The notes under the pieces: model-generated
What the model was told of the DNA's origin: nothing
What the model saw: only the letters and a program-made list of their open reading frames with translations
Database searches by the model: none
Translations under genes and position numbers: made by a program
Shown: one piece after another, positions 20,664 to 54,443 of the stretch
How the letters are laid out: every line of letters begins with the position of its first letter
Position numbering within the stretch: position 1 is the stretch's first letter
From: a virus
DNA: 64,000 nucleotides
IMG/VR virus record: IMGVR_UViG_3300032053_000011
Coordinates: 64,001 to 128,000 of that record
Direction: 5' to 3' (one strand)

Positions 20664-22069
20664 CTCTGCAATCGATCCGCACCAACAAACCGGCTGAATT
20701 GGCTGTTCTCGGTGATGCGATGGCGCACAAGGGTGCCATCGCGATCCTGAAAGGAATCCTCGGCATAGAGGACTTCTACTGGCCCGAGAACAGTACCATC
20801 TGGGCAGCAATGGTCGCGCTCGAAGAGCGCGGAGTAAGCATTGACCCGGTCACTATTGCCGACGAACTACGAACGATTCGTCGGCTGAATACGGTCAGTG
20901 GTCTCGTCGACATCGAGACACTGAAGTACCACGCCGGACGGGACATCGATGCTGTGGAATCCCATGCCCGCATCGTGGCTGGCCTCGCGATGGCGCGCCG
21001 CATCGAGTCCACTGCGCAGTCCATCGCAGCGCTCGCCCTCGATCCGTCCATCGCCGTGCCGGACTTCGCCGACCGCGCGATCACAGCATTATCTGAGGCC
21101 ACCAAACAGCGGGATGTACGGGCGCCCGCAGCGATGATCGACATGGCTGAAGATCTTACGAAGCGCATCGAGCAACAAGCAGATGCTCCAGAAGGCATCA
21201 CCGGTGTTCCTTCCGGGCTTACTCAACTCGATGCCATCACGTCTGGTCTTCAGCCCGGGACGCTCGTGATCGTCGCGGCGAGACCAGCGATGGGAAAATC
21301 CAGCCTCGCGACGAAGTTGGTGAAGGCCTGCGCGGAACGCAACAACTCAGGCAACAAGGCCTCGCTGCTGTTCTCTCTCGAGATGCCCAACAAAGAGCAG
21401 TTCGAACGCATCGCTTGTGAGCAGGCCTCGATCGATGCGAAGAAGATCAAACGGCGGCAGTTGACTTCGGACGATATGACAGGGCTCACCAGCGCTTTGA
21501 ACTACGTCGCAACGTTGCCGATTTTCATCGACGATGACTCGTCCGTGACCCCGCAGGACCTGCGCGCCCGCGCTCTACGGCAGCATTCACGCACGCCGCT
21601 CGGCCTGATCGCCATCGACTATCTCCAGCTCATCATGCCTCCGCGCACGATGGGGCGCGACACACGTGAACGACAGGTTACCGTCATCGCCGAAGCGCTC
21701 AAGGCGCTGGCCAAAGAATTGAATATTCCGGTCGTTGCCCTCGCACAACTGAATCGATCACTTGAGGAACGGCCAGACAAGCGACCGCGGCTTTCAGATC
21801 TCCGCGAGAGCGGAGGACTGGAGCAATCCGCCGACCTCGTGCTCTTCATCTATCGGGACGACTACTACAATAAGGACTCGGCCGACAAAGGCATCGCCGA
21901 ACTCATTGTTGCGAAGCAGCGCGGCGGCGATACGAGCACAGCCTATGCGCGATGGATCGCAACGCTGACGCGCTTTCAGGATCTATCAGACGAGGAACTC
22001 GAAGAACTCGATAATCGCAAGGCGGCGCCAAATAACGTCGTGCCAATGCGGCCAAGGAACAGAGCATGA
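20660..22069 (+). CDS. dnaB: Replicative DNA helicase
   Basis: N-terminal domain (E.AVLG, DFY, IDPVT), AARPAMGKS, FSLEM, IDYLQL, AQLNR, DLRESGGLEQSAD and KQRGG. Confidence 0.95.
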   Translation: MTLQSIRTNKPAELAVLGDAMAHKGAIAILKGILGIEDFYWPENSTIWAAMVALEERGVSIDPVTIADELRTIRRLNTVSGLVDIETLKYHAGRDIDAVESHARIVAGLAMARRIESTAQSIAALALDPSIAVPDFADRAITALSEATKQRDVRAPAAMIDMAEDLTKRIEQQADAPEGITGVPSGLTQLDAITSGLQPGTLVIVAARPAMGKSSLATKLVKACAERNNSGNKASLLFSLEMPNKEQFERIACEQASIDAKKIKRRQLTSDDMTGLTSALNYVATLPIFIDDDSSVTPQDLRARALRQHSRTPLGLIAIDYLQLIMPPRTMGRDTRERQVTVIAEALKALAKELNIPVVALAQLNRSLEERPDKRPRLSDLRESGGLEQSADLVLFIYRDDYYNKDSADKGIAELIVAKQRGGDTSTAYARWIATLTRFQDLSDEELEELDNRKAAPNNVVPMRPRNRA

Positions 22070-22079
22070 GGGCAAGATC

Positions 22080-22940
22080 GTGAACGACAAATCGCAGTAT
22101 GGTGCATCAGACACGCCGGATGGCATCACCGGGATTCCATCCGGCCTCCGCCAGCTCGACAACATCACCGGTGGCTTCCAGCCAGGAACGCTCATCCTCG
22201 TCGCGGCGAAGTCAGCGATGGGCAAGAGCAGCTTTGGAACAAAGCTCGTGAGAAAGTGCGCGGAACGCACCAACGATGGCAAGAGCGCGTCGCTGCTATT
22301 CTCCATCGAGATGACAGGGGAAGAGCAGCACCTGCGCATTGTTTGCGAGGCAGCGTCGGTCGACGCGATGAGTATCAGGCGTGGCGACACAAGCGCACGG
22401 GCGTCGATGTTGGGCGCGGCGCGCTACGTCGCCACGTTGCCGATCTTCATCGACGACAATTCGTCCGTGACGCCGCAAGATCTCCGCGCACGTGCTCTTC
22501 TCCAGGACGCGCGCACGCCGCTCGGTCTGATCGTGATCGACAACCTCCATCTGATCCGTCCGCCGCGCACGATGAGCCAGAATACGATTGCCGAATCGCT
22601 CAAGGCGCTCGGCAAAGAACTCAACATCCCGATCGTCGCGCTCACACATTTGAATCGGTTCCAGGAGGACAGGCCGAACAGGCGTCCGGGGCTCTCGGAT
22701 CTGCCCGGTGACCTCGAGCAGTCCGCCGACGTCGTCATCTTCATCCACCGCGATGACTATGATGACAAGCATTCGTCAAACAAAGGCATCACCGAACTGA
22801 TCGTTGCGAAGCATCGCGGTGGCGAGACGAGCACCGCCTATGCGCGCTGGATCCCGACGCTGACGCGTTTTCAGGACCTCACCGACGAGGAGCTTGAGGA
22901 CATCGATACGAGCAGGTCAGCACGGAGGGGTTCGACATGA
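22080..22940 (+). CDS. Second, N-terminally truncated DnaB-like ATPase domain (tandem duplicate)
   Basis: Colinear with the C-terminal part of 20660-22069 at protein and DNA level; motifs altered (AAKSAMGKS, IDNLHL, THLNR, DLPGDLEQSAD, KHRGG). Confidence 0.85.
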   Translation: MNDKSQYGASDTPDGITGIPSGLRQLDNITGGFQPGTLILVAAKSAMGKSSFGTKLVRKCAERTNDGKSASLLFSIEMTGEEQHLRIVCEAASVDAMSIRRGDTSARASMLGAARYVATLPIFIDDNSSVTPQDLRARALLQDARTPLGLIVIDNLHLIRPPRTMSQNTIAESLKALGKELNIPIVALTHLNRFQEDRPNRRPGLSDLPGDLEQSADVVIFIHRDDYDDKHSSNKGITELIVAKHRGGETSTAYARWIPTLTRFQDLTDEELEDIDTSRSARRGST

Positions 22941-43175: not shown

Positions 43176-44162
43176 ATGGGTGCTGACGCCGCCGCCTCCA
43201 GCTCTGCTGCTCCTGCATTCATGCCGCTGTTCCCCGAGGTTCCGGTCGACGCGTGCGCGTTCATCGAACTGTTCGGGATCTCGACGCGCGGCAAAGGCGA
43301 GGAGGACCTGTGGCTGATCGACAAGATCAAGCCCGCCTCCATCGAGCAGGACATCACCGATCAGTATGGAGGTGGCCGCTTTCAGCTCGGCGCCGTCGCC
43401 CCTGATGCCGCCGCGGGCGGCAAGAAGCGTTACGTGATGGAGCGGCAGCTCGCGCTGGTAGGCGAGGAGCGCTGGCGCTCGCTGGTACCGCAACTCCGCG
43501 AAGAATCAGAGAGAAAGGCGCGAGAAGCCAACATGAGCCGAGGATATCAGCCGCCCGCACCGGGAGCCCCCGCCGCAGGGTATCCCCCAGGTTACCCGCA
43601 GCAGGCCGGTGGCTATCCACCGGCGGGCTACGGTCCGCCGGGGTATCCGCCCGGCGGCTATCCACCGGCGGGCTATCCGCCCGCGGGGTATCCACCTGCC
43701 GGATACGGCGGCGGACAGGCCGCGCCGAACCGCCCGGACGAGTTCGAACGGACGCTGAACAATACGAAGGCGCTCACCACCCTGATTCAGGGTTCCGGGT
43801 CGCAGCACACCAGCAACGACCAATCACAGATCCAGTGGCTTCAGGGAGAACTGAACCGCAAGAACGGCGAGATCGAACAGATCCGTGGGACGCACCGTGA
43901 TCAGTTGGCCCAGCGCGATGCCGAGGTCTTCAAGCTGCGCAACGACTTCCTCACCCTCCAGGGCGAGCTGTTCCAGATGCGCGCCGAGCGCGCCGCGGGA
44001 GTTCGTCCCGGCGAAGCGCCGTCGATGGCCGGTCAGGTTGGCGTCGCCGCCGTCCAGGCAATGATCCCCAAGCTCATGGACAACCCCGCCATCGGACGTC
44101 TGATCGGCAGCCTCGCCACCTCGATGGGCGCGCCGCCTGCGGGCACGAGTGGTAGCGGCTGA
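43176..44162 (+). CDS. Protein with GYPP(A/G) repeats and coiled coil
   Basis: About seven GYPP/GYGPP/GYP units at roughly 43575-43705, then a Gln/Glu coiled coil. Confidence 0.75.
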   Translation: MGADAAASSSAAPAFMPLFPEVPVDACAFIELFGISTRGKGEEDLWLIDKIKPASIEQDITDQYGGGRFQLGAVAPDAAAGGKKRYVMERQLALVGEERWRSLVPQLREESERKAREANMSRGYQPPAPGAPAAGYPPGYPQQAGGYPPAGYGPPGYPPGGYPPAGYPPAGYPPAGYGGGQAAPNRPDEFERTLNNTKALTTLIQGSGSQHTSNDQSQIQWLQGELNRKNGEIEQIRGTHRDQLAQRDAEVFKLRNDFLTLQGELFQMRAERAAGVRPGEAPSMAGQVGVAAVQAMIPKLMDNPAIGRLIGSLATSMGAPPAGTSGSG

Positions 44163-44170
44163 GGGCTGAG

Positions 44171-44530
44171 GTGAGTGATCCGCTCGTTCCCGCCACGACT
44201 TGGGGCGAGGTCGTAGGGCGCGTACTGATCAGCACGCGCAATTCGATCTCGATGACCCAGGCCGAGATGGCACGTAGAGTCGGCCTCAGCAAGGGCGCAT
44301 GGTCGCGGATCGAACATGGCTCGAGAGCCTTCAGGATCGACCAACTCGAGAACGCAGCGCGCGCCATGGGCACCACGTCCGATGATATCCTGCGCCTCGC
44401 TCGGCTCGTTGCCGAACATCTCAGAGCGCGGGGCATTCGCGTAGAGACGGCACGCGAACTCACCGTTGGTCGCGTGGGGATCGACGGCAGTGCCCTCGCG
44501 ACGCTGGCCGATCAAGTCATGAACTCGTAG
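44171..44530 (+). CDS. XRE-family HTH regulator
   Basis: MTQAEMARRVGLSKGAWSRIEHG....IDQLENAARAMG. Confidence 0.85.
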   Translation: MSDPLVPATTWGEVVGRVLISTRNSISMTQAEMARRVGLSKGAWSRIEHGSRAFRIDQLENAARAMGTTSDDILRLARLVAEHLRARGIRVETARELTVGRVGIDGSALATLADQVMNS

Positions 44531-44536
44531 CAGTGG

Positions 44537-44565
44537 TTGACGCCGATGCGCTAGGACGGCATTGT
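44537..44565 (+). promoter_or_regulatory. Promoter for the tRNA gene
   Basis: TTGACG-N17-CATTGT, ending 5 nt before the tRNA 5' end. Confidence 0.6.
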
Positions 44566-44570
44566 ACTCG

Positions 44571-44645
44571 TACGAGCGGGGGGTGGAGTCATCCTGCCGG
44601 TCTCATAAGCCGGACAACTGGGCGCGACTCCCAGGCTCGGAACCA
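44571..44645 (+). tRNA. Atypical tRNA with CAU anticodon (Met or Ile2)
   Basis: TACGAGC/GCTCGGA-A-CCA acceptor (one mismatch), D-arm GGGTG-GAGT-CATCC, CCGGT-CTCATAA-GCCGG, and CTGGG-CGCGACT-CCCAG. Confidence 0.8.
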
Positions 44646-44651
44646 CACACC

Positions 44652-44690
44652 CAGAACGCCTCGGCATCCAATCGATGCCGAGGCGTTCTG
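44652..44690 (+). terminator. Perfect 17-bp hairpin after the tRNA
   Basis: CAGAACGCCTCGGCATC-CAATC-GATGCCGAGGCGTTCTG; only a weak U-tract follows. Confidence 0.65.
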
Positions 44691-45064
44691 CTTCAGCGCC
44701 GATAGCCGGGGCCGGGATGCTCTGCCGGATTCCACGGAAGAGCGACGCGAGCGGGAGCAGCCGGGTCCAATGCTGGGCCGCTCTTGGCCGACATCGAATA
44801 CTGGACCGTGTAACCCTCCCGCACGAGCTCGCGCGGAGTGATCTGGATCCCGTGCTTCGCGAACTCCGCAATCAACTGATGTGCGAACACCAGCGCATTA
44901 CGAAGGTCGGGTTCGCCGATTGGCTCATCTCGATTGGCGCGTCCAATGGCCTCGCAAACCGCGTCGGCGAGTGGCTGAAGGTGTTGAGGGATCATGCCGA
45001 CAACGGTACCAGGACCATGTCTGCGTGGAAACATGATCTGGACCGACTGCTGCCTGCGTTGCGC

Positions 45065-45093
45065 TTGACGCGCGCTAGCACCAAGGCTACGGT
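45065..45093 (+). promoter_or_regulatory. Promoter with operator A variant ahead of an RHH gene
   Basis: TTGACG-N17-TACGGT with GCTAGC at 45074 and GCTACG downstream. Confidence 0.65.
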
Positions 45094-45103
45094 CCATTCT
45101 AAT

Positions 45104-45397
45104 ATGGCGAAATCATCGAAGACCCGGACCCCGCCGCGTCGGCCCGCGCGTGTCCTGTTTGTGCGCGTTCCCGAAGAAACACTCGCATGGCTGGACGATC
45201 TCGCCGCCGTACGTGAAACCGCGACGGGATTGCCGGTGAATCGCTCGGACGTGGTACGGCTGTTGATCGGTGAGGCGAAGAAAGCCGCCATGCCGACCGA
45301 GTCAGCGGAAACGCTGGCAGCGCTCTCTTCGGTCTCGAAGAAACCGAAGAGCAAGGTCGCCAAGAATGGCAGCAAGGCTCGTCACGCGACCGGATAG
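45104..45397 (+). CDS. Ribbon-helix-helix regulator
   Basis: VLFVRVPEETLAWLDDLA.........NRSDVVRLLI; ATG 45104 follows the promoter. Confidence 0.75.
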   Translation: MAKSSKTRTPPRRPARVLFVRVPEETLAWLDDLAAVRETATGLPVNRSDVVRLLIGEAKKAAMPTESAETLAALSSVSKKPKSKVAKNGSKARHATG

Positions 45398-45409
45398 AGC
45401 TGGAATTCC

Positions 45410-45754
45410 ATGGCCAAGACGCACGTCTCTACGAGGGTGGCTGTGCGAGAAGAGCGGAGGCTCACGAAGCGAGCCCGCGCAATCATGCGGTTGATGGTCG
45501 AGCCGAAGGACGGCGACGATGGCCAGTTGGTTGGCGAGTCAGGCCAGTGGTGGGTCGATCTCGAGCGAACGTCGTGGTCTGTCGTCCGCCAGCTTCTGAA
45601 GCTCTGCCTGATCCGGCTGGAGTACGAAGACAATCGCGGCAACTACCAGCAGTATGCCGCGACGGATGAAGCTCGGAAGATTCTCGACGATCCTAGCTAT
45701 GTGACGATGATCGAGCGCGCAAAAGCGACCGGAAAGCCGGTGTACGCGTTCTGA
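45410..45754 (+). CDS. Hypothetical protein, wHTH-like
   Basis: LTKRARAIMRLM...VVRQLLKLCLI...YAATDEARKIL. Confidence 0.6.
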   Translation: MAKTHVSTRVAVREERRLTKRARAIMRLMVEPKDGDDGQLVGESGQWWVDLERTSWSVVRQLLKLCLIRLEYEDNRGNYQQYAATDEARKILDDPSYVTMIERAKATGKPVYAF

Positions 45755-45759
45755 CGTCG

Positions 45760-46239
45760 TCAGTGATGTGGTCCGGGGCCGGGATGCGGACCTGGATGCG
45801 GGCCAGGGCCAGGACCCGGATGCGGGCCCGGCCCGGGATGTCCGGGATGCAGCGGGAAGTGCGCGGGCCGACCCTGCCAGAAATGATACGGCGCGTACTG
45901 CCGGGTGTACGCGTTGACGAGAAAGGTCTCGCTGCTCGGGTCGGCGAAGTAGAACGGGTGGAGGACGATCGGGTACACCGCATTCGGTGGGATCAGCAGG
46001 TCCTCGAGCCCGGTCACTTCGATCATGAAGCGGTGGGACTCCCAGACGCCGCCGACCTGAGAGACGTTGACCTCGGCCATCTGCCGTCCGCCTTCCGGCG
46101 CGAGGATCGTGACGTCGACGAGCCACCAGCCTGTTCCTTCCACGCCAAAGTGTGAGGACACGAGCTGTCGCACGTCCCGTGCGAAGTCATTCCAGGAGCG
46201 CGGCAGCGGATCGGTGCGGACCGTGATGAAGTCGCTCAT
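45760..46239 (-). CDS. Protein with C-terminal His/Pro/Gly repeat tail
   Basis: MSDFITV...HPGHPGPGPHPGPGPGPHPGPHPGPGPHH. Confidence 0.65.
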   Translation of the reverse strand: MSDFITVRTDPLPRSWNDFARDVRQLVSSHFGVEGTGWWLVDVTILAPEGGRQMAEVNVSQVGGVWESHRFMIEVTGLEDLLIPPNAVYPIVLHPFYFADPSSETFLVNAYTRQYAPYHFWQGRPAHFPLHPGHPGPGPHPGPGPGPHPGPHPGPGPHH

Positions 46240-46267
46240 CGGCCGATCGTACGCTAGGATGTTCACC

Positions 46268-46459
46268 ATGCTCAAACTTGCTGCTCTGCTCTCCATGCTC
46301 GCTCTCAGTGCTTGTGTGCCGCCCGCGGCCACTCCCGACGTCCTGGACGCCACCGCCGTGGAGGCATCGACGGTCGACGCCTCGGCCGAGGTGACCAGCG
46401 ACGAGCCCGCGCCGCGGCCCGACGGCGAGCTGCCGATGGATGCGCGCGTCGACTTCTGA
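46268..46459 (+). CDS. Small lipoprotein
   Basis: MLKLAALLSMLALSAC lipobox followed by an acidic DA-rich stretch. Confidence 0.55.
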   Translation: MLKLAALLSMLALSACVPPAATPDVLDATAVEASTVDASAEVTSDEPAPRPDGELPMDARVDF

Positions 46460-46513
46460 GCGGCACTCTGCACGCAGGGTGACGGCGTCGCCGCGGGCGG
46501 CGATACTGCGCAA

Positions 46514-47170
46514 GTGCCCAAGCTGATCAAATGCCCGGAATGTGGACAGGCGTTGTCCGAACGGCGCATGCACGCTCACCGCGGGCTCCAGTGTCAGGTC
46601 GCTTGCGCAGAATCCAAGGCACGCGCCGAAGGACTCGATCGGCTCGACTCCGAATGGAGTGGCTGGCTGAACGAACTGTACGACACTGGCATGCGAATCG
46701 AGCGACGACCGACGGGTCTACCGGATCTCCATGGCTTCGGCGCCTACGAGCGCGCGGTTGAGGAATGGTGGACCGAGGCTTGGATCGCCAGGATCGCATC
46801 CTGGGAAGGGCTGTATCAGAACCAGAAGCGGGCTGCGGTTCGGCGTCTCATCGCAGACCCGGCCATGCTTGCCGATGCACGCGCACACATCGGGGCCTGT
46901 GCCTCGACCGTATTTACCGAGCAGGCAACAGTGCACCTGATCTCGGCGACCGGCGCCGAGGTGATGATGAAGGAACAGCCCGGCCTCCGGTGGATTCTGG
47001 TGTTCGACGATGACGGCCAGATCGTCGACTCTTTCCTTGGTGCACGCATGGGGAAGTACGAGCATGAGGGAAAGTTTCCCCCGTTGCACATCGTGCTCGC
47101 AGTGATGCCAGTGATTGAACAGTTCGCTCGGTGCAACGCGATGTTCAACTGGCTTGCAGGGACGCGATGA
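46514..47170 (+). CDS. Array paralogue 1 (C2HC Zn finger)
   Basis: CPEC-x11-H-x4-C; WWTEAW; FPPLHIV...IEQFARCNAMFNWLAG. Confidence 0.8.
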   Translation: MPKLIKCPECGQALSERRMHAHRGLQCQVACAESKARAEGLDRLDSEWSGWLNELYDTGMRIERRPTGLPDLHGFGAYERAVEEWWTEAWIARIASWEGLYQNQKRAAVRRLIADPAMLADARAHIGACASTVFTEQATVHLISATGAEVMMKEQPGLRWILVFDDDGQIVDSFLGARMGKYEHEGKFPPLHIVLAVMPVIEQFARCNAMFNWLAGTR

Positions 47171-47952
47171 GCGCGCGCGTACGCTGCGAGGTCTGCGACG
47201 TGAACGTCGCATACAAAGGCTTGCGAGCGCATGAGCAGACGACCGGGCATCAGGAAGCGGCGCCGTTGTTCCTCGCATCGCGCGCGGCAGAAGCACAGGC
47301 ACACAATGACGGCCTCGACCGTCTGATCGATTTCGACTTCGCGCCGTACGACCAGGATGCTTTGTCGACTGCGAGCGCAGGCCATGATCGGCTGACGCCG
47401 GTCTTCGATGCCCTTGGTATTCCAGTTCTCGCGTTGCCAACCGGATTCCATCGCGGCACTCGATACAGCCACCGCTATGACGAGTTGTGGACCGTGTGGT
47501 GGGCAGCGAATGTCGCTAACTGGAAAGAGGTCGAGTTCAAGACGCGTGTCCGCGCGCTCGAGCGTCTTGCGGCCGAGCCGAACCTCCGCGAGTACGTGCG
47601 CGACTGGCCCCCCGTCATCGGCATGAGCGTCCGCCTCGTTGGCCTGGAATTCTCAAGCGGGCACGCCATCGCCGGAACTGCGCGAAGGGCCGGGATGCAA
47701 GTCTGGGTCAGCCAACCCGGGTCAGCGCATCTGATGATCTTGCTGGATCCGTCGGACAAGTGGACGTCCGTGGAATCCTGGGACCTCACTTTCAGCCCAC
47801 ACGGAGAGATCCTGGAGTTCCGGTCGAGCCATTGGCCACAGCACGAAGAGATGCCGATGCCGCCGCTGAACGTGATGATCGAAACTCAGGGTGCGATCGA
47901 GAAGTTCGCCCGGTGCAGTGCCACGATCCGTTGGCTGGCAGGTGGCACGTGA
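47167..47952 (+). CDS. Array paralogue 2 (C2H2 Zn finger)
   Basis: CEVC-x11-H-x5-H; WTVWWA..VANW; PPLNVM...IEKFARCSATIRWLAG. Confidence 0.8.
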   Translation: MSARVRCEVCDVNVAYKGLRAHEQTTGHQEAAPLFLASRAAEAQAHNDGLDRLIDFDFAPYDQDALSTASAGHDRLTPVFDALGIPVLALPTGFHRGTRYSHRYDELWTVWWAANVANWKEVEFKTRVRALERLAAEPNLREYVRDWPPVIGMSVRLVGLEFSSGHAIAGTARRAGMQVWVSQPGSAHLMILLDPSDKWTSVESWDLTFSPHGEILEFRSSHWPQHEEMPMPPLNVMIETQGAIEKFARCSATIRWLAGGT

Positions 47953-48644
47953 GCGCGACGTACTGCGAGGTCTGTGGCATGAAGGTCGCGCCCCATGGGA
48001 TGTGGGCTCACAAACACACCGCGGAGCATCTGAGGGCCGTGCCAGTGGTGCAGGCAGCTCAGGCTGAGACCGAGAATGCCGCTGCCGCTGGGCTGGTCCG
48101 ACTATATTACGCCGCCGAATTCTACGATCATCTCGCTGCAATCGGCGTCCGAACAGAGATGCTACCAACGTCGGTCGAGCACGAATCGGCGCGCGGCAGA
48201 GTTCGGCCACTACGTCAGCCATGGACAGAAGCCTGGGCTGGAGCAATCGCCAATTGGGATGCTGTGGATACCAAGACTCGCAAGCGCGCGCTGGCACGTG
48301 TGGCAGCCGATCCAGCGTTGCGTGCATCCGTGCCCGAGTGTCAGCAGGACGTAGACTTGCCGGGCGCTCGCGTGTCGCTCAAGAGCTTCGAGTGGAATCC
48401 TAGCGCGATGGCAACAATCTCGACTGAGCGCGAGCACGGACGGATCGCCGGTAGCAGCATGTGGAACCTCTACTTCGATGAAGTCGGACACATCCTGGAG
48501 ATCACGCGATGTGAGATCCCGCATCTGCGAATCGCAACGCACGACGCTGCGCCACCATTGCACCTGATGGTTCAGGCAGTGGACATCATCGAGCACTTCG
48601 CGCGCTGCAACGCTGCCATCCGTTGGCTGGCAGGTGCGCCGTGA
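47949..48644 (+). CDS. Array paralogue 3 (C2H2 Zn finger)
   Basis: YCEVC-x11-H-x5-H; WTEAWAGAIANW; IEHFARCNAAIRWLAG. Confidence 0.8.
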   Translation: MSATYCEVCGMKVAPHGMWAHKHTAEHLRAVPVVQAAQAETENAAAAGLVRLYYAAEFYDHLAAIGVRTEMLPTSVEHESARGRVRPLRQPWTEAWAGAIANWDAVDTKTRKRALARVAADPALRASVPECQQDVDLPGARVSLKSFEWNPSAMATISTEREHGRIAGSSMWNLYFDEVGHILEITRCEIPHLRIATHDAAPPLHLMVQAVDIIEHFARCNAAIRWLAGAP

Positions 48645-49384
48645 GCGCGACGTACTGCGAGGTCTGCAAGACGAAGGTCATGTCCGGCGGCATGCGTGCG
48701 CACGAGCGTTCAGCGGGGCATCAACGCACGGCGCCGCTGGCGGCCGAGGCGAGACTTGCGACAGAGCAGGCGATCGCTCAGGGACTCGTTCGAATGACCG
48801 AACACGACTTCTCGAACTGGGATACTGGGACGCCATTTCTCGATTCCATTGGAGTGCGCACGGAACGGTTGCTCACCTCGTATGCGCGCAGCCGGAACCA
48901 TAGCTGGAAGTATCCAGAATGGTGGACCGAGGCCTGGGCAGCACCGATCGCTGACTGGCGAGGTCTCGACGTCGCCACTCGCGAACGGGCGCTCGCGCGA
49001 GTGGCTGCTGATCCGAGTCTGCGAGCCTACGTGCCGCACTGCCCGCTTGTCTTGGAATTCCAGGGTGTAACAGTGACCATCAACCACAAGCGCTACGTGC
49101 AAGATATGGCGATGTTGTCTGATGAACACGCGGCGGGCGCAGACGGGCTATCCATGGCAACAATCTCGATCTCGGGGCACGGACGCGGCAACACGAACAT
49201 GTGGCACGTCCACTTCGACGGCACCGGGAGCATCGTGGATATCGTCCCGTTCCGTGTCCCACATCTCGAGATCAACACGCCGGAGGATGCCCCGCCGCTG
49301 AGCGTGATGGTCGAGGCTCAGGGCGCGATCGAGCACTTCGCGCGCTGCAATGCTGCGATCCGATGGCTGGCAAGCGATGCATGA
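48641..49384 (+). CDS. Array paralogue 4 (C2H2 Zn finger)
   Basis: YCEVC-x11-H-x5-H; WWTEAWAAPIADW; IEHFARCNAAIRWLAS. Confidence 0.8.
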   Translation: MSATYCEVCKTKVMSGGMRAHERSAGHQRTAPLAAEARLATEQAIAQGLVRMTEHDFSNWDTGTPFLDSIGVRTERLLTSYARSRNHSWKYPEWWTEAWAAPIADWRGLDVATRERALARVAADPSLRAYVPHCPLVLEFQGVTVTINHKRYVQDMAMLSDEHAAGADGLSMATISISGHGRGNTNMWHVHFDGTGSIVDIVPFRVPHLEINTPEDAPPLSVMVEAQGAIEHFARCNAAIRWLASDA

Positions 49385-49745
49385 AGAGAGCTTCATCATC
49401 GGCGAGCATGTGATCGGTTTGCGTTGGCTCGAACGCAAGGGCGAGAGCGCGTTCTATAGAGGCGCTGGCCTCTTCTGGTTTCCTGGGTTCCCCATCGGTG
49501 TGCTCGGTGGTCGCTACTTTTCTTACCAGCGGGGAACCTTCCACCGGGACGAATTGTTCCCAGAGGGCCACGGAGTGGGCAGGAACTTCGATGATTTCAA
49601 GTCGTTGTCGGCGCACCATCAGAAAGCAGTGCGGCCGATGCTCCGTAGATTCTACGAGCTCGTCGGGGTAACGCCCGAGGCTCTCCAGATGATGGGGCTC
49701 GCAGGCTACATCGTACTCGAACAGATGGTTAAGGGTGCTGCATGA
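49377..49745 (+). CDS. Unrelated hypothetical protein inside the array
   Basis: Overlaps both neighbours; lacks the array motifs. Confidence 0.55.
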   Translation: MHEESFIIGEHVIGLRWLERKGESAFYRGAGLFWFPGFPIGVLGGRYFSYQRGTFHRDELFPEGHGVGRNFDDFKSLSAHHQKAVRPMLRRFYELVGVTPEALQMMGLAGYIVLEQMVKGAA

Positions 49746-50302
49746 GCCGGAAGACCGAAGACTTCGAGAAATCCTACTACGCGGCGGAGCGTTTCGCTCC
49801 GCTGCTGAGGGAGCTTGGAATCCCCGTCATCATGTTGCGCGATCCGGCGAACGCCGGACGTGGATATGACGATCGGCCCGTGCCACATGTCCCGTTCTGG
49901 GCAGTCCGAGTCGTCAACTGGATGGGGTTGAGCGTGGCGGAGATAGAGACAGCGTTGCGGCGGTTGGCCGCCGAGCCAGCCTTGCGGGCGACCGTGCGCG
50001 GCCTCGTCCAGGTCATGCGAACGGATACGGTCACAGTCGCTCTTCAGAGCACGTCATTCATGCGAGATCGAGAGGGTAGGTTCCCGACAGAGATGTTCGC
50101 GCAGGTGTGGACCAATGATCGGAACATTGGAGAGTGGGAGGTCCACTACGATCGCACCGGTGCGATTCTCAAGATTGGGCCGCGCTCGAGAGCGGGGGGG
50201 GAGATTGTCCCCATGCCGCTGCATATTGCGGTCGTCGTCCAGCAGGCCATCGAGGAGTTCGTGCGGGGCGACGCCGTGATGCACGCCTTGGGCGCGTCGT
50301 GA
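49742..50302 (+). CDS. Array paralogue 5 (no Zn finger)
   Basis: WAVRVVNW...ALRRLAAEPALR; MPLHIAVVVQQAIEEF. Confidence 0.75.
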   Translation: MSRKTEDFEKSYYAAERFAPLLRELGIPVIMLRDPANAGRGYDDRPVPHVPFWAVRVVNWMGLSVAEIETALRRLAAEPALRATVRGLVQVMRTDTVTVALQSTSFMRDREGRFPTEMFAQVWTNDRNIGEWEVHYDRTGAILKIGPRSRAGGEIVPMPLHIAVVVQQAIEEFVRGDAVMHALGAS

Positions 50303-50865
50303 ACCGCTCCGAAAGATTGATCGAGTGCTATGGGGCACGACAACACGAGGCCCTGCTCACAGAGCTTGGAGTGCCGATCACCTGGAAGGCGCCGCGCATC
50401 GTCGGAGCGGGGAAGTCCGAGCTTCCGGCGCCATACATCGCTGCCTGGGCAGGCGTGATCATCTACTGGATTGGTCTCGACGACGAAGAGCGTGAACGCG
50501 TGCTCCGCCGCGTGGCCGCCGATCCAGCACTGCGGGCAATCGTTGGAGATCTCACGCAACGATTCGGCACCGACGATATTCGAGTCACTCTCAATCGCGT
50601 CCATCGGTCGGACTGGCGTTCGCATGAGCGGCTGCATAGCGATGGCTCAGGAGAGGCGTCCGTCGGTTTTGCGGATGGCCCATGGGTCGATGAACGATGG
50701 TTGGTGAGCTACGATTCGACCGGCGTCATCCTCAATATCCTGCAACACGATGACGCGCAGGTGGAAGAGATGCCATTGCACATCGCGGTCATCGTTCAGG
50801 CGGCCATCGAGGAGTTCATTCGCGGCGGCTTGCTGATGCATCAGCTCGGAGCGAAGCAGCCGTGA
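50299..50865 (+). CDS. Array paralogue 6 (no Zn finger)
   Basis: WAGVIIYW...VLRRVAADPALR; MPLHIAVIVQAAIEEF. Confidence 0.75.
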   Translation: MNRSERLIECYGARQHEALLTELGVPITWKAPRIVGAGKSELPAPYIAAWAGVIIYWIGLDDEERERVLRRVAADPALRAIVGDLTQRFGTDDIRVTLNRVHRSDWRSHERLHSDGSGEASVGFADGPWVDERWLVSYDSTGVILNILQHDDAQVEEMPLHIAVIVQAAIEEFIRGGLLMHQLGAKQP

Positions 50866-51500
50866 GCGACCACTCTGTCGAGTGCCCGATCTGTCACGAG
50901 CGCGTCGCCAGTTGGCGTGGGATGACGGCACATCAACGCGGCTTCCGCTGCATGGCCGCCCGCGCGACGAGCGAGGCGATCGCGGAGGGTCTCGGCCGTG
51001 TCGATCCACGCGACTTGGCCTCAGTCGGACTTGCATGCCAATACCGTTTCACCCGCCGCGAGAGAACAGCCCCGAGCGAATGCTGGACCGAGGCATGGAT
51101 CGCCGGGATCCTGAACTGGGTCGCGCTTCGTCGCGTGGTGCGGAGAGCTGCGGTGCGACATGTTCTGCGCGACCCGTCATTGCGAACGCGGGTACCGATC
51201 TGCCCGCCGAATACCTTCTACTTCGACGACAGCAGGATGCAGATCTGGCTCGGTCGCTCGAACGAACTTGGCTTCAAGGAGAACGATGCGCGGATGCATA
51301 TCCCGGTACCGAGTCCGCCGACCGGCGGTCCGAACTATGACGCATGGGATCTCATCTTCGATGACGATGGGTACATCGCATTCCCCGATGCGGTGGTCTA
51401 TCCACCGATGTTCGTCGTGCTCCAGGCACAGTCGGTCACGATGCAATGGGCCGCCTGCTCGGCGGCCATCCGCGCGCTGGCCGAGGGCGAGATACTGTGA
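50862..51500 (+). CDS. Array paralogue 7 (C2HC Zn finger)
   Basis: CPIC-x12-H-x5-C; WTEAWIAGILNW; YPPMFVV...WAACSAAIRALA. Confidence 0.8.
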   Translation: MSDHSVECPICHERVASWRGMTAHQRGFRCMAARATSEAIAEGLGRVDPRDLASVGLACQYRFTRRERTAPSECWTEAWIAGILNWVALRRVVRRAAVRHVLRDPSLRTRVPICPPNTFYFDDSRMQIWLGRSNELGFKENDARMHIPVPSPPTGGPNYDAWDLIFDDDGYIAFPDAVVYPPMFVVLQAQSVTMQWAACSAAIRALAEGEIL

Positions 51501-52096
51501 CGCCGTCGATCGCACTGATCGAGACGTACGTCTGGTTCAGCGCCGGTCCGATGCCGCTCGAGCTCGCGATTCAGCTCACGCCAGAGCGGCTCCACAAGCT
51601 CTGGCACCGCACTACGAACTGGCGAGCGATGCTGCGCATCCTGCTCGTCACGCGATTGCCACTAGCGCGGCTCGCGGTAGTCGAGGCTGTTGCTCTCGCG
51701 CTCGAGAAAGAGCCGCGAGTATCCAATCCAATCGACGCGCAAGGTTCGTTGTCGCTCCTGCGGATGAGAGCGGCTGAGTTGTCGGTTGGGATTCCGCTCC
51801 AGCGTGCGTCGGAGGTCGTCACGGCGCGCGCGTTCGCCAACTCACAAGCGTCATTCGATGCCCGGTTCCGCAAGCTCACGAACTCTGGACTCGTATGGGA
51901 TGCGATCTACGATGCTCTGAGAAGTCTGCTTGAGAGTGATGACCTAGTGTTCGGTCAGCCGAAGTACGCCGCCGACCGTGCCATGTGTGCGGCGGAGAAA
52001 GCTGGCGTTACCGGCGGCGAGATCCTGCATTGGCTTCGACCACTGGGGCCTCCGACGCTCGAGGAAATCGTGGCTGCGAGCTTTCAAGGCATCTAG
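51497..52096 (+). CDS. Hypothetical protein, dispersed paralogue family
   Basis: LWHRTTNWRAMLRIL; C-terminal LRPLGPPTLEEIV as in 13538. Confidence 0.6.
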   Translation: MTPSIALIETYVWFSAGPMPLELAIQLTPERLHKLWHRTTNWRAMLRILLVTRLPLARLAVVEAVALALEKEPRVSNPIDAQGSLSLLRMRAAELSVGIPLQRASEVVTARAFANSQASFDARFRKLTNSGLVWDAIYDALRSLLESDDLVFGQPKYAADRAMCAAEKAGVTGGEILHWLRPLGPPTLEEIVAASFQGI

Positions 52097-52196
52097 GCAT
52101 CCCGATCGTCGTCAGCCAGCCCATGTGACAACCAATGTCCAGCGGGCCGCAACTGCATGGTTGCCAAGACTCGTCATGGACTTCTAGGCTACCGTC

Positions 52197-52829
52197 ATGA
52201 CGGAGCGCAAAACGTATGGCGCATGGACTCGTCTCGGCCGCGAGAAACGCGAGAAACGACGCAGCGGCCGTGGCAACACGCTGTTCTGGGAATGCGAGTG
52301 CCGATGCGGGACCGTGAAGTGGGTGCGGGCATCGCAATTGAAGAACAACACATCAACCTGCTGCGGGTGCATCCGGCCTATCAAACATGGCAAGTGCGAC
52401 ACGCCCGAATACCATATCTGGGCGACCATGCTCGCGCGCTGCCGGAACCCATCATCGGACAGTTATTATCTGTACGGGGAACAGGGCGTTACCGTCTGCA
52501 CCGACTGGCTGCGCTTCGAGAATTTTCTTCGTGATATGGGTCCTCGGCCATCTCCTGAACTGTCAATCGAGAGGAAGAACAACGACGGCAACTATGAGTT
52601 GCTGAACTGCCGCTGGGCGACCGCTGGAGAGCAGTCACGAAATACGTGCAGGACAAAGCTGTTCACCATTGCCGGGAAGACACTGTGTATGAAGGACTGG
52701 GCCAAGGATCAGGGGATGGTCTATACCACGCTGCAAGGACGATTACGGCGAGGTCTCTCCATCGAGGCCGCTCTGAATCTGCCGCTTCAAGTACACAAAC
52801 CACGCCGGAACGTGGCACCAGTGCCATAG
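52197..52829 (+). CDS. HNH homing endonuclease
   Basis: WECECRCG, HG...TPEY.IW..M..RC.NP, VC..W..FE.F..DMG.RP and SIER.NNDGNY...NCRWAT..EQSRN. Confidence 0.9.
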   Translation: MTERKTYGAWTRLGREKREKRRSGRGNTLFWECECRCGTVKWVRASQLKNNTSTCCGCIRPIKHGKCDTPEYHIWATMLARCRNPSSDSYYLYGEQGVTVCTDWLRFENFLRDMGPRPSPELSIERKNNDGNYELLNCRWATAGEQSRNTCRTKLFTIAGKTLCMKDWAKDQGMVYTTLQGRLRRGLSIEAALNLPLQVHKPRRNVAPVP

Positions 52830-52833
52830 CAGC

Positions 52834-52861
52834 TTGCAACGCGCTAGCACTGTGTTACCCT
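52834..52861 (+). promoter_or_regulatory. Promoter with operator A variant ahead of the kinase
   Basis: TTGCAA-N16-TACCCT (TGn extended) with GCTAGC-ACTGT-GTTACC at 52843-52859. Confidence 0.55.
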
Positions 52862-52868
52862 GTTTCGC

Positions 52869-54443
52869 ATGCTCAACGCGGCGGCCTTGGAAGCACGGAT
52901 TGGAACGATGCTGGCTGGCAAGTATCGGCTCGATCGAATTCTTGGCATGGGTGGCATGGGCGCGGTCTTCGACGCCGAGAACACATGGCTCACACGGCGG
53001 GTTGCCGTCAAGGTTATGCACCCCGACGTGAGTCGTGATCAGGCGCTCGTGGAGCGTTTCCTACGCGAAGCAAGAGCCGCCGCACGTGTGCATCATCCGA
53101 ATGTCGTCGACGTGCTCGACTTGGGGCAGGATGCCGATGGGACTCTTTTCATCGTGCAGGAATTCTTGCCGGGGACCGACCTCGAGCATCTGATGCGAGA
53201 TCGTGGGCCGCTTCCTCCGCGTGAAGCGCTCGAGATCATCGTGCCCGTGATGAGCGCGTTGATTGCTGCTCACCGCAGCGGCATCCTGCACCGCGACGTG
53301 AAGCCCGCCAACGTGCTCCTCGCGAATTCACCAGGAGGTGGTGTTGTCCCCAAGCTTCTGGACTTTGGTATCGCGAAGGTACAGGAGTCCGTCGCATCGA
53401 AGGACCTCACACAGACCGGCGTCGCACTCGGCACAGTGCATTACTTCTCGCCCGAGCAAGCCGCGGGCGCGCGCGACGTTGATGCGCAGACCGACGTTTG
53501 GGCCCTGGCAGTGATGTTGTACGAGATGCTCTCGGGACGCTGCCCCTGGGAAGGCGAGACGGTCAACCAGATCTTCGCAGCCGTGTTGACCGCAGAAGTG
53601 CCGCCGATTCAGTCGATCGCGCCGAACGTGCCCGATGCACTCGCGGCGGTGATCATGCGTGCGCTCGAGCGCGATCGGACGGTGCGCTTCCGTTCGATGC
53701 AGGAATTCCTTGGTGCTCTGCTCGACTGCCCGACGTTCGAGAAGGAGAGCTGGCACACCACTCTGCGGGTCACCCATCAGGCAGCCACTACATCGGTCGA
53801 CGGCCCAATCGAGATGGAGCGCGAACGCCGTGGGACGGACGTGCTGCAAGTGATGCCGAGCAAGGTAACGCCGCCACGCATGACTACGTTCGGCAGGACG
53901 GCGCGCGAGATCCTCGTCCCGTCGGACAACCATCTCGATACATCATCGCTCAGCGGATTCGTCGTGATGGCCGGGTTCCTGATGCTCACCGCATTCGGGA
54001 TGACCGCAATCGGTATTGCGTTTGGGATCGGTGGACTTGGCTCCCATGCCTCCGTCCCCGCGCCGCGTCCGGCTGCGACGTTCGAAGCGGTCTTCGATGT
54101 CCCCGGCGCCACGATCGAGATCGACGGTGTGCCGATGGGCACCGGTCATGTCGCCGTGGTGCTGCCGGTTGATGGCCGCAGCCATGTCGCGCGCTGCTAC
54201 GCCCCCGGACGTGTCGAACGTCGCGTGGAGTTTCGCAACCAGCTTCCGCCGGTTCGCATCGCGCTCGAGCCAATTGCGGTTCCGCCTCTCGTCGTGGAAC
54301 CACCGACGGCAGCGCCCACCATCATTCGCCATGTCCGGGCTGCGGCGCCAGTCGCGGTCCATCCGACGCCTCCACCGCCTGCCGCGGCTCATTCCGCAAG
54401 CCGCTCGCGCAATGGCGCACCGATCCTGGGGCTCGATGAATAA
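52869..54443 (+). CDS. Hanks-type Ser/Thr protein kinase with TM helix and PEGA-like extracellular domain
   Basis: LGMGGMGAV, VAVK, HRDVKPAN, DFGIAK, GTVHYFSPEQ and DVWALAV; TM segment; PGATIEIDG...G...APG. Confidence 0.95.
   Translation: MLNAAALEARIGTMLAGKYRLDRILGMGGMGAVFDAENTWLTRRVAVKVMHPDVSRDQALVERFLREARAAARVHHPNVVDVLDLGQDADGTLFIVQEFLPGTDLEHLMRDRGPLPPREALEIIVPVMSALIAAHRSGILHRDVKPANVLLANSPGGGVVPKLLDFGIAKVQESVASKDLTQTGVALGTVHYFSPEQAAGARDVDAQTDVWALAVMLYEMLSGRCPWEGETVNQIFAAVLTAEVPPIQSIAPNVPDALAAVIMRALERDRTVRFRSMQEFLGALLDCPTFEKESWHTTLRVTHQAATTSVDGPIEMERERRGTDVLQVMPSKVTPPRMTTFGRTAREILVPSDNHLDTSSLSGFVVMAGFLMLTAFGMTAIGIAFGIGGLGSHASVPAPRPAATFEAVFDVPGATIEIDGVPMGTGHVAVVLPVDGRSHVARCYAPGRVERRVEFRNQLPPVRIALEPIAVPPLVVEPPTAAPTIIRHVRAAAPVAVHPTPPPPAAAHSASRSRNGAPILGLDE

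What the first reader, a model, noticed from the sequence alone, without database searches (positions are those of the whole stretch)
46514..51500. Tandem array of seven paralogues: Zn finger + conserved W-rich core + variable beta region + conserved end
Seen: seven translationally coupled genes share W(T)EAW...I..W....R..A..R..A(D/E)P.LR and a terminal P(P)L.......IE.F(ARC.A.IRWLA) block, with highly divergent sequence between. Three start with CxxC-x11-H-x5-H, two with C2HC fingers, and two have none; one unrelated gene is embedded. Junction DNA is conserved (TGGCTGGCAGGTG...GTGAGCGCGACGTACTGCGAGGTCTG near 47932 and 48624), offering recombination handles. Knowledge: H-x5-H spacing resembles matrin/U1/JAZ-type fingers, which bind RNA in eukaryotes. 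Inference: a gene-accordion repertoire of specificity variants (anti-defence, host-takeover or RNA-targeting adaptors) diversified by RecT-mediated exchange. This is my best candidate for an undescribed system.
Basis: partly seen in the sequence, partly recalled or inferred. Interest (0 to 1): 0.85.

Follow-up and report, generated by a model that had tools for sequence, protein, structure and literature searches.

The report
Seven-copy zinc-finger protein family, phage
A large uncultured bacterial virus carries seven old, diverged copies of one two-part protein of unknown fold and function, strung together in a single tightly coupled operon; the array is real and undescribed, but it looks like a stable, long-kept panel of binding proteins and not a fast-changing gene accordion.

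Summary
Window 46514-51500 encodes seven paralogues (18-51% identical) with one unrelated gene embedded, and all eight junctions overlap. Three proteins have a CxxC-x11-H-x5-H finger, two have CCHC fingers and two have none.

The window lies in a 137.5-kb virus record that holds exactly seven copies. Its kinase gene points to a Myxococcota host.

No Pfam, PHROG, NCBIfam, PADLOC or PDB family matches. AlphaFold models are confident (pLDDT 88 and 91), but no fold match exceeds Z 5.6.

Among 1.84 billion representatives only 36 proteins match. Three outside proteins are full-length relatives. Twenty-five share only the N-terminal finger plus W-core module.

Relatives of g1 and g4 from another metagenome contig are 59-66% identical to them, even in the 'variable' region (56-58%, against 10-32% between paralogues). 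So the duplications are old and each copy is conserved. I found no mosaicism and no copy-number variant. The accordion/RecT reading is not supported.

Function is unknown. My best guess is a fixed panel of target-specific binders. The scan noted this same stretch once more (e1-6165418), on the same genome and not on other DNA.

The parts
46259..46459 (+). Small predicted lipoprotein gene just upstream on the same strand, with a 54-nt gap to g1. It is possibly the first gene of the operon.
   Evidence: The ORF translation has a signal-peptide-like stretch ending LSAC. ATG codons at 46259 and 46268 were read. The only NCBIfam hit is far below cut-off. Operon membership is inferred.
46514..47170 (+). 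g1, 218 aa, CCHC finger + W-core + acidic beta domain + C-terminal helix
   Evidence: Its counterpart P0009/P0038 is 59-60% identical.
47167..47952 (+). g2, 261 aa, CCHH finger (C-x2-C-x11-H-x5-H); the longest variable region
   Evidence: ATGA overlap with g1.
47949..48644 (+). g3, 231 aa, CCHH finger
   Evidence: GTGA overlap. It is 51% identical to g4.
48641..49384 (+). g4, 247 aa, CCHH finger; the copy that was modelled
   Evidence: AlphaFold2 gives pLDDT 88.1 and pTM 0.83. Its counterpart P0002 is 63-66% identical.
49377..49745 (+). Embedded unrelated gene, 122 aa, overlapping g4 by 8 nt (ATGCATGA) and g5 by 4 nt
   Evidence: hhalign against the family profile gives probability 0.1%. No Pfam, PADLOC or NCBIfam hit.
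49742..50302 (+). g5, 186 aa, no finger; it starts just before the L..GIP block
   Evidence: It pairs with g6 (44% identity; tree support 100/100).
50299..50865 (+). g6, 188 aa, no finger
   Evidence: GTGA overlap. The public gene call is also 188 aa.
50862..51500 (+). g7, 212 aa, CCHC finger; the most diverged copy
   Evidence: It has a long branch in the tree.
51497..52096 (+). Next gene, 199 aa, coupled to g7 by a GTGA overlap. It is not a member of the family and is weakly like another expanded helical family of this phage.
   Evidence: hhalign against the family gives probability 0.2%. BLASTP hits four ORFs at genome 8.6-14.8 kb with E 1e-4 to 3e-3.
47896..48030 (+). g2/g3 junction, one copy of a 135-nt direct repeat (the other copy is 48588-48722, the g3/g4 junction)
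   Evidence: 75% identity and 71 of 90 nt around the stop codons. Codons for identical residues are the same in 21 of 25 cases at the gene ends against 39 of 88 elsewhere (Fisher p=5e-4, windows chosen after looking).

Best explanation
The array is an old, stably inherited operon of seven paralogous two-domain proteins in a large uncultured phage. The phage probably infects Myxococcota.

Each protein has two parts:
- An N-terminal module: a beta-beta-alpha zinc finger (ancestrally CCHC, changed to CCHH in g2-g4 and lost in g5-g6), a long helix, a beta hairpin, and the Trp-rich helical core. A sparse family of small, mostly basic proteins, probably viral, shares this module. Many of these proteins consist of little more than the module.
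- A lineage-specific, mostly acidic antiparallel beta-sheet domain, closed by a conserved C-terminal helix.

Most likely mechanism (inferred, not shown): the conserved finger, W-core and C-helix form a common scaffold or a common docking function. The paralogue-specific acidic beta surface of each copy binds a different, evolutionarily stable partner, such as a host or defence protein or a basic nucleic-acid-binding protein. Translational coupling delivers the seven copies together in fixed proportions.

On this reading the array is a fixed multi-target panel of binders or blockers for host takeover or counter-defence.
For: Shown:
- Seven paralogues with 8 of 8 overlapping junctions.
- Exactly 7 copies in the genome.
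- Confident models in which both halves fold together (pLDDT 88, pTM 0.83; N-module pLDDT 91).
- The N-module alone recurs in 25 of the 36 database hits, in proteins of 125-282 aa with median pI 9.2.
- The full two-domain form recurs in only 3 outside clusters.
- The variable domain is acidic in 6 of 7 copies (pI 4.1-5.6; g5 is 8.6).
- Identity among paralogues is lowest in the beta region: 21% mean against 29-41% in the other four regions.
- That same region is 56-58% conserved between g1 or g4 and their counterparts on another contig. Each copy's surface is therefore kept by selection and not free-running.
- Relationships are the same in all four regions tested.
- The tree places the outside relatives P0010 and P0011 with the CCHC copies g1 and g7 (support 96/96). 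CCHC is therefore probably the ancestral finger; the tree is rooted at its midpoint only.

Context, from AI notes that I checked only in part: the same phage carries other expanded families read as immunity-like blockers (e1-6165379). The gene coupled to g7 is weakly like those.
Against: - No partner, ligand or activity is known, and no RNA data exist.
- No defence or anti-defence model matches. PADLOC holds defence systems only, not counter-defence proteins.
- A basic zinc-finger module fits nucleic-acid binding at least as well as protein docking.
- Only two counterparts from one 4.2-kb contig support the 'stable panel' claim. Their being on one contig is inferred from equal contig lengths.
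- I could not fetch that contig, so synteny and copy number elsewhere were not seen.
- The acidic charge of the beta domain is modest.
- No surface mapping was possible, because model coordinates are not exposed.
Confidence: 0.35

Rival explanations
1. The proteins are nucleic-acid-binding regulators. The finger plus basic N-module binds DNA or RNA, and the seven copies recognise different operators or transcripts of the phage or host. The acidic domain would then act as an effector or oligomerisation part.
For: - The wider N-module family is basic (median pI 9.2, n=25).
- The finger and first helix are basic in g1, g4, P0002, P0010 and P0011, and the core is basic in g3, g7, P0010 and P0011.
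- Two relatives carry an extra N-terminal finger: RanBP2-type in P0036, above the Pfam cut-off, and FCS-type in P0030, just below it.
- The finger superposes on small beta-beta-alpha fingers: Sgf11 (rmsd 1.8 over 30), WRNIP1 UBZ (0.7 over 20) and RAD18 UBZ. Those rows have E above 2.
- Phage Mu Com is a precedent for a small phage zinc-finger protein that binds mRNA (PMC6483171; I saw only the search listing and the start of the abstract).
Against: - The whole proteins are neutral to acidic (pI 5.3-6.9).
- Two copies lack the finger altogether yet keep the rest.
- A single finger rarely gives sequence specificity (general knowledge).
- No helix-turn-helix or other DNA-binding fold was found.
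- The most divergent part is the acidic domain, not the finger.
Confidence: 0.25
2. The seven coupled products are subunits of one hetero-oligomeric assembly. On this reading the coupling serves stoichiometry, and the conserved W-core and C-helix are the subunit interfaces.
For: - All junctions overlap.
- No promoter-like site and no terminator excess lie inside the array: 0 promoter-like sites found against 1.5 expected, and 6 terminator-like sites against 4.0 expected over 44000-53000.
- The conserved blocks are shared by all seven copies, including the finger-less ones.
- Each copy is individually conserved.
Against: - Overlapping starts are common in compact phage operons whatever the function. 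Here they also extend to two unrelated genes.
- Outside relatives P0010 and P0011 are known only as single genes. P0011's contig is only 891 bp and neither contig was seen.
- No test of assembly gave an answer.
Confidence: 0.12
3. This is the first reader's model: a gene accordion whose copies are being amplified, exchanged and diversified by RecT-mediated recombination at conserved junction handles.
For: - RecT and a YqaJ exonuclease are encoded in the window.
- Adjacent copies are each other's closest relatives (g3-g4 51%, g5-g6 44%), as tandem duplication predicts.
- The g2/g3 and g3/g4 junctions keep 71 of 90 nt with excess synonymous identity. This could be a trace of gene conversion.
Against: - Nucleotide identity between copies is only 39-60%. 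That is far too low for ongoing homologous exchange outside two short junction runs.
- Counterparts of g1 and g4 in another contig show that the duplications predate the split of the two phages.
- There is no mosaic pattern.
- One contig at even depth of about 40 spans the array without variants.
- The junction identity coincides with the conserved WLAG and MSATYCEVC codons and an AGGTG stretch 4 nt before the next start, so coding and initiation constraints are an alternative explanation.
Confidence: 0.06
4. The proteins are virion-associated or ejected proteins, internal or accessory, that are delivered with the DNA.
For: - The array lies about 5 kb upstream of genes with tail-fibre-like and membrane-anchored modules. 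One of them matches phrog_31 (tail fibre J) at E 2.4e-8.
- Multi-copy internal proteins are known in large phages (general knowledge).
Against: - No structural PHROG hit for any copy.
- An HNH endonuclease gene and a kinase cassette separate the array from those genes.
- There are no signal or transmembrane features in the translations (read).
Confidence: 0.07

Closest known systems
Small beta-beta-alpha C2HC/C2H2 zinc fingers (Sgf11-type, UBZ4 of RAD18/WRNIP1)
   Same: The CxxC...H...C/H ligand order is the same. The predicted hairpin-then-helix shape matches. The finger superposes locally on 2lo2 (rmsd 1.8 over 30 columns), 3vhs (0.7 over 20) and 5vf0. A language-model lead points to a cluster in which 16% of members carry PF08209 Sgf11 (score 0.87).
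   Different: No Pfam finger model reaches its cut-off (best E 0.034). The Foldseek rows have E above 2. Those fingers are eukaryotic and bind ubiquitin or nucleosomes. Here the finger continues into a 20-residue helix that belongs to a larger domain.
Matrin/U1/JAZ-type C2H2 fingers
   Same: The H-x5-H spacing in g2-g4. The spacing of those families is recalled by me and was not checked in a call.
   Different: The Cys-to-His gap is 11, not 12 as I recall for those families. No hit to any such Pfam model for g2-g4 at E<=1. The CCHH form is a derived state within this phage lineage, and the relatives are CCHC.
p32 / MAM33 (gC1qBP) acidic alpha/beta fold
   Same: Both have a helix, an antiparallel sheet and a long C-terminal helix. 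Both are acidic. This is the best second-look match over the whole C-terminal half (1yqf_C: Z 5.1, rmsd 5.0, 113 aligned, model 119-247; also 6szw_B Z 4.3 and 1p32_C Z 4.1).
   Different: Z is below the 7-8 that unrelated models typically reach. It is tied with polo-box (Z 5.6) and GNAT/MYST rows (Z 4-5). There is no sequence similarity (9% identity).
PcfJ-like proteins of phages (BFVD models)
   Same: Five of the top 13 BFVD rows carry this name (best E 0.027, probability 0.96, TM 0.24/0.40).
   Different: No row reaches E<=0.001. The TM-scores are low. No PcfJ Pfam hit at E<=1. The function of PcfJ is itself unknown (recalled).
Expanded paralogue families of large phages and giant viruses, including the Imm5-like array of this same phage (note e1-6165379)
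   Same: Many diverged copies of one small protein, clustered, with conserved ends and a variable middle, in a genome that invests heavily in such families.
   Different: The fold and sequence family are different. Here there is strict head-to-tail coupling of all copies, a zinc finger, and two domains. I checked the other family only through weak BLAST links.
Poxvirus-type gene accordions (K3L)
   Same: A tandem array of one gene in a virus.
   Different: Accordions are recent, near-identical and variable in number (recalled). These copies are 18-51% identical, and at least two predate a phage split.

Membership tests
Classical or matrin/U1/JAZ-type C2H2 zinc finger (Pfam zf-C2H2, zf-met, zf-U1, zf-C2H2_jaz) | A significant match to the family profile | tested here: not met
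   g2, g3 and g4 have 0 Pfam families at E<=1. g7 hits zf-C2H2 at E 0.034, 15.0 bits against a cut-off of 25.2.
Classical or matrin/U1/JAZ-type C2H2 zinc finger | Four zinc ligands in C-x2-C ... H-x(3-6)-H order on a beta-hairpin plus helix | tested here: met
   The spacing C-x2-C-x11-H-x5-H was read in g2-g4. The model shows strands 4-5 and 12-13 followed by helix 18-22. Zinc binding itself cannot be tested here.
Sgf11 / UBZ4-type C2HC finger | C2HC ligand set with structural superposition on solved fingers | tested here: inconclusive
   g1, g7 and 28 of 33 aligned family members are CCHC-type. The local superpositions are good but not significant (E above 2). The Atlas lead scores 0.87, below the tool's 0.9 line.
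PcfJ-like (PF14284; accession recalled) | Profile match or clear fold match | tested here: inconclusive
   No Pfam hit at E<=1. The best BFVD Foldseek row has E 0.027 and TM 0.24/0.40.
p32/MAM33 fold | Fold match well above background over the domain | tested here: inconclusive
   Z 5.1, rmsd 5.0, 113 aligned residues. The tool's own background for unmatched models is Z 7-8.
Known anti-phage defence proteins (PADLOC-DB) | Profile match | tested here: not met
   0 families for 10 of 10 proteins at E<=0.1.
Gene accordion (recent tandem amplification) | Near-identical copies | tested here: not met
   Pairwise identity is 18-51% at the amino-acid level and 39-60% at the nucleotide level.
Gene accordion (recent tandem amplification) | Copy number varies between closely related genomes or within a population | tested here: inconclusive
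   No joint or length variant in the contigs of 2 runs, but contigs hide rare variants. The related contig could not be fetched.
New family defined here (finger + W-core + beta domain + FARC helix) | Full-length profile match outside this genome | tested here: met
   P0002, P0009/P0038, P0010 and P0011 have E 7.8e-63 to 1.3e-19 over profile positions 3-233 (P0009 from position 82). This comes from a search of 1.84 billion representatives.

The most novel reading that the evidence does not exclude
The array is a previously undescribed phage system: a fixed battery of seven proteins built on one new zinc-finger/Trp-core scaffold. In this reading each copy's own conserved acidic beta surface neutralises a different host immunity protein or nucleic-acid-binding protein. 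The seven are produced together from one coupled operon, and the battery has been kept intact across related Myxococcota phages.
Probability: 0.2. Interest if true: 0.75.

Novelty: new variant of a known kind. Interest (0 to 1): 0.45.

Why it matters
Large phages of poorly studied hosts such as Myxococcota devote much of their DNA to expanded families of unknown proteins. These families are the likeliest place to find new ways of disabling host functions.

This family gives confident models that resemble no solved or predicted viral structure. It also has a clean natural experiment built in: seven versions with three finger states, each individually conserved.

If the copies bind different host or defence proteins, they would be a ready-made set of specific inhibitors, and a handle on immunity in a bacterial phylum where almost nothing is known.

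If they instead bind nucleic acids, the N-terminal module would define a new prokaryotic-virus zinc-finger domain.

The family is very rare, with 36 hits in 1.84 billion representatives, so its reach is narrow.

Tried and rejected
**Family libraries**
- Pfam, PHROGs, NCBIfam and PADLOC on the seven copies and their neighbours gave nothing at or near the cut-offs.
- Scanning all 33 members of alignment A2 gave only stray extra fingers, one phage family of unknown function (phrog_5643) and one partial match to a PHROG named HNH endonuclease.
- A PDB sequence profile search had a best E of 0.064, to CD4, which is noise.

**Fold searches**
- Foldseek against PDB and BFVD gave no row at E<=0.001.
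- VIA-align wide gave a best Z of 5.6 for the whole model (polo-box, 69 aligned) and 3.6 for the N-module.
- The second look gave Z 5.1.
- I therefore name no fold. This does not prove that the fold is new.

**ESM Atlas**
- No usable feature hit for g1, and structure rows at TM<=0.38.
- Only leads below 0.9 for P0012.

**Looking for relatives with context**
- 6 of 6 scans of viral contigs, 2 of 2 scans of metagenome contigs and 1 scan of genome contigs returned no relative.
- tblastn of g1, P0013, P0024 and P0018 against 50,697 GenBank phage records gave no match for any of the 4.
- The N-module profile matched 0 of 5 Myxococcota genomes reached by handles.
- It matched 1 of 401 sampled genomes of that phylum. 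That match is finger-only: 35 positions, E 2.4e-4, inside a 572-aa frame.
- Two word-index searches added nothing. The A1 profile returned only 3 of the window's own proteins, and g5 returned only itself.

**Oligomer test**
- Complex prediction with two copies of g4 scored 0.00 and gave 'no answer'. It is no evidence either way.

**Expression**
- No RNA holder is listed.
- Laying contigs of runs X1 and X2 showed no variants. X1 is the probable source. X2, from a second sediment study, holds identical 208-nt and 151-nt pieces.
- A part without cover says nothing.

**Signals and literature**
- The promoter and terminator scan found nothing above the shuffles.
- Two full-text searches listed nothing on such a family. 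I saw only listings and abstract starts, so 'not in print' rests on those two searches alone. No supplements were consulted.

**Slips of my own**
- In one search I translated the embedded gene from 49381, which is out of frame. Its pI and BLAST rows there are void. The correct start is 49377.
- In some searches the lipoprotein was started at 46250 with a forced Met. The real ATG codons are at 46259 and 46268.
- The end-of-gene windows for the synonymous-site test were chosen after looking at the data.

Full report
**What is there**

The window is bases 64001-128000 of a 137,514-bp virus record rated 93% complete.

Between 46514 and 51500 the + strand carries seven genes of one family, with an unrelated 122-codon gene between the fourth and fifth. 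Their coordinates are:
- g1 46514-47170
- g2 47167-47952
- g3 47949-48644
- g4 48641-49384
- g5 49742-50302
- g6 50299-50865
- g7 50862-51500

A profile of the seven finds these seven places and no other in the whole record (8 candidates scored, E 9.4e-96 to 2.3e-60). That E-value is circular, because the profile contains the sequences. Independently, plain BLASTP at E<1e-4 links all seven into one component. It is the largest of nine paralogue families among 205 rough gene calls.

**Coupling**

Reading the junctions, the stop of each gene is overlapped by the start of the next.
- Seven of eight junctions are ATGA or GTGA. These run from g1/g2 to g7 and the following gene.
- The embedded gene starts at ATG 49377, an 8-nt overlap (ATGCATGA).
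- The ATG at 49381, which I first took as its start, is out of frame. That was my slip.

Public gene calls agree with my starts for g4, g5, g6 and g7 (247, 186, 188 and 212 aa). They begin later for g1, g2 and g3 (200, 251 and 221 aa). The later starts would cut the CxxC half of the finger. The finger is conserved in P0002, P0010 and P0011, which favours the overlapping starts.

No sigma-70-like promoter was found over 44000-53000 (0 against 1.5 expected). Terminator-like sites were 6 against 4.0 expected. Nothing therefore argues against a single transcript, but transcription was not observed.

**Finger types and blocks**

- g2, g3 and g4 carry C-x2-C-x11-H-x5-H.
- g1 carries C-x2-C-x11-H-x4-C, and g7 carries C-x2-C-x12-H-x5-C.
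- g5 and g6 begin roughly 45-55 residues later and lack the finger and the first helix.
- The Trp-rich block and the terminal PPL...IE.FARC.A.IRWLA block are shared by all seven, though degenerate in g5-g7.

**Junction DNA**

Only two junctions resemble each other. g2/g3 and g3/g4 share 71 of 90 nt, with perfect runs of 17 and 25 nt. They form a 135-nt repeat at 75% identity. Most other junction pairs share 18-47 of 90; g3/g4 against g4/embedded shares 53.

In the g3-g4 pair, codons for identical residues are the same in 21 of 25 cases in the first and last alignment windows. In between the figure is 39 of 88 (Fisher p=5e-4). I chose those windows after seeing the data.

The conserved stretch codes for ...IRWLAG and MSATYCEVC, and it contains AGGTG 4 nt before the next start. 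Dual coding and initiation constraints explain it as well as gene conversion does.

**What the proteins are**

No library knows them:
- Pfam gives only sub-threshold finger hits in g1 and g7 (E 0.03-0.17) and none in g2-g6.
- PHROGs gives nothing below E 0.03.
- PADLOC gives nothing at E<=0.1.
- NCBIfam gives nothing near its cut-offs.
- The PDB sequence profile search gives noise.

AlphaFold2 on an 11-row alignment gives a confident single-body model of g4 (pLDDT 88.1, pTM 0.83). Its elements, in order, are:
- a beta hairpin and short helix (the finger, residues 4-22)
- a long helix (25-46)
- a hairpin of two 10-residue strands (74-97), ending in the WWTEAW block
- helices 101-130 (the R..A..R..AADP.LR block)
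- a mostly antiparallel sheet with one helix (137-203)
- a long C-terminal helix (220-244, the FARC block)

The N-module of g1 alone, modelled with 30 sequences, gives pLDDT 91.4.

Fold searches find nothing convincing:
- No Foldseek row at E<=0.001 in PDB or BFVD.
- VIA-align best Z 5.6 for the whole model (polo-box, 69 residues) and 3.6 for the N-module.
- The second look gives Z 5.1 for a p32/MAM33-like protein over the whole C-terminal half.
- The tool's own background for unmatched models is Z 7-8.

I treat p32, polo-box, GNAT and the weak PcfJ-like BFVD rows as leads only.

The finger itself superposes on small beta-beta-alpha fingers (Sgf11, RAD18 and WRNIP1 UBZ), without significance.

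**How wide the family is**

An exhaustive HMMER search of 1.84 billion representatives gives 36 proteins at E<=0.001. They break down as follows:
- Seven are the window's own clusters.
- Three are full-length outsiders: P0009, P0010 and P0011. P0002, which stands for the g4 cluster, is a fourth outside protein.
- Twenty-five match only profile positions of roughly 3-130. These are proteins of 125-282 aa with the CCHC finger, a GL.R turn, a GV..E strand and W.P.W.
- One 1,895-aa protein matches a short C-terminal stretch and is probably spurious.

The N-module proteins are basic (median pI 9.2). Three carry additions:
- P0036 has an extra RanBP2-type finger.
- P0030 has an FCS-like finger.
- P0015 is fused to a phage family of unknown function (phrog_5643, E 1.4e-12).

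The N-module is therefore the older, wider unit. The beta domain plus FARC helix is nearly private to this phage lineage.

Nothing related was found in any of these:
- 50,697 GenBank phage records (4 of 4 queries blank).
- IMG/VR (6 of 6 scans blank).
- 401 sampled Myxococcota genomes, apart from one finger-only match.

**Age and stability**

Paralogue identities are 18-51%. P0009/P0038 is 59-60% identical to g1, and P0002 is 66% identical to g4. Both have a single contig of 4,246 bp on record, presumably the same one (this is an inference).

The tree gives these groupings:
- g1 with P0038 (99/96)
- g4 with P0002 (81/84)
- g5 with g6 (100/100)
- a CCHC clade of g1, g7, P0010 and P0011 (96/96)

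The duplications that made g1 and g4 are therefore older than the split from that relative. The CCHH and finger-less forms look derived; the tree is rooted only at its midpoint.

Region by region:
- Among paralogues, the beta region averages 21% identity, against 29-41% in the other four regions.
- In residues 132-190 of that region, paralogues are at 10-32% and counterparts at 56-58%.
- Counterparts are only a little less conserved in the beta region than elsewhere: 60% against 64-74% for g4/P0002.
- Each copy's nearest relative is the same in all four regions.

Each copy therefore keeps its own surface under constraint. There is no mosaicism. The 'variable' region is variable between copies, not through time.

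One contig at even depth of about 40 spans the array in the probable source run. A second sediment study holds identical fragments, with no variants. Contigs cannot exclude rare variants.

**Host and setting**

The kinase just downstream (52869-54443) has its best relatives (37-49% identity) in genomes whose titles mostly name Myxococcota lineages. These include Kofleriaceae, Haliangiales, Nannocystaceae and Polyangiaceae. A few titles name other phyla (509 of 576 candidate stretches confirmed, best 80 listed).

RecT, YqaJ, two DnaB-like genes, an RNB-dsRBD nuclease and an HNH endonuclease are in the window.

The gene coupled to g7 is unrelated to the family.

**Mechanism**

Shown:
- the architecture and the coupling
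- the confident two-domain model
- a basic, widely shared N-module
- an acidic beta domain that is copy-specific and individually conserved

Inferred:
- a common scaffold with seven fixed specificities
- targets that are most likely proteins or basic nucleic-acid-binding factors of the host or its defences
- co-delivery of the copies in fixed ratio

I put this at about 0.35. The rivals are nucleic-acid-binding regulators (0.25), one hetero-oligomeric assembly (0.12), virion-associated proteins (0.07) and the accordion (0.06). The rest is unassigned.

**Verdict**

The family is undescribed and its predicted fold is unmatched. The evolutionary reading of the first stage is wrong in its dynamic part. 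Interest is moderate: the family is real and novel, but rare and without a functional handle.

Noticed in passing
window 51497-52096: The gene coupled to g7 by a GTGA overlap is not a family member (hhalign probability 0.2%). It gives weak BLASTP hits (E 1e-4 to 3e-3, 28-50% identity) to four ORFs at genome 8.6-14.8 kb, the region another note reads as an Imm5-like array. Two expanded families may therefore be co-transcribed.
   Followed up: partly
window 49377-49745: The embedded 122-aa gene has no relative in any library. It is unrelated to the array and overlaps both neighbours (8 nt and 4 nt). It sits exactly where the finger-bearing copies give way to the finger-less ones.
   Followed up: partly
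window 46259-46459: A small acidic predicted lipoprotein (signal peptide ending LSAC) is encoded 54 nt upstream of g1 on the same strand. A GCTAGG stretch lies right before its ATG.
   Followed up: no
whole record: The protein collection lists the window's own proteins on a contig of 247,125 bp, while the virus record is 137,514 bp. Either the phage is larger than the record (a jumbo phage), or another assembly joins it to flanking DNA.
   Followed up: no
window 20660-22069 and 22080-22940: Two adjacent DnaB-like helicase genes. The second lacks the N-terminal part (phrog_19, E 1e-95 and 8e-61). BLASTP links them as paralogues.
   Followed up: no
window 52869-54443: The Ser/Thr kinase gene has 37-49% identical relatives, mostly in Myxococcota genomes (Kofleriaceae, Nannocystaceae, Polyangiales). 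This is the best host clue in the window.
   Followed up: yes
window 50338-50545 and 50842-50992: A second sediment metagenome from another study holds unitigs identical to these pieces of g6 and g7 at low depth (2-3). The same phage therefore occurs in at least two data sets.
   Followed up: partly
window 43176-44162: This ORF has a long run of PPGY/PAGY-type repeats followed by a coiled-coil-like tail. It has no PHROG hit.
   Followed up: no
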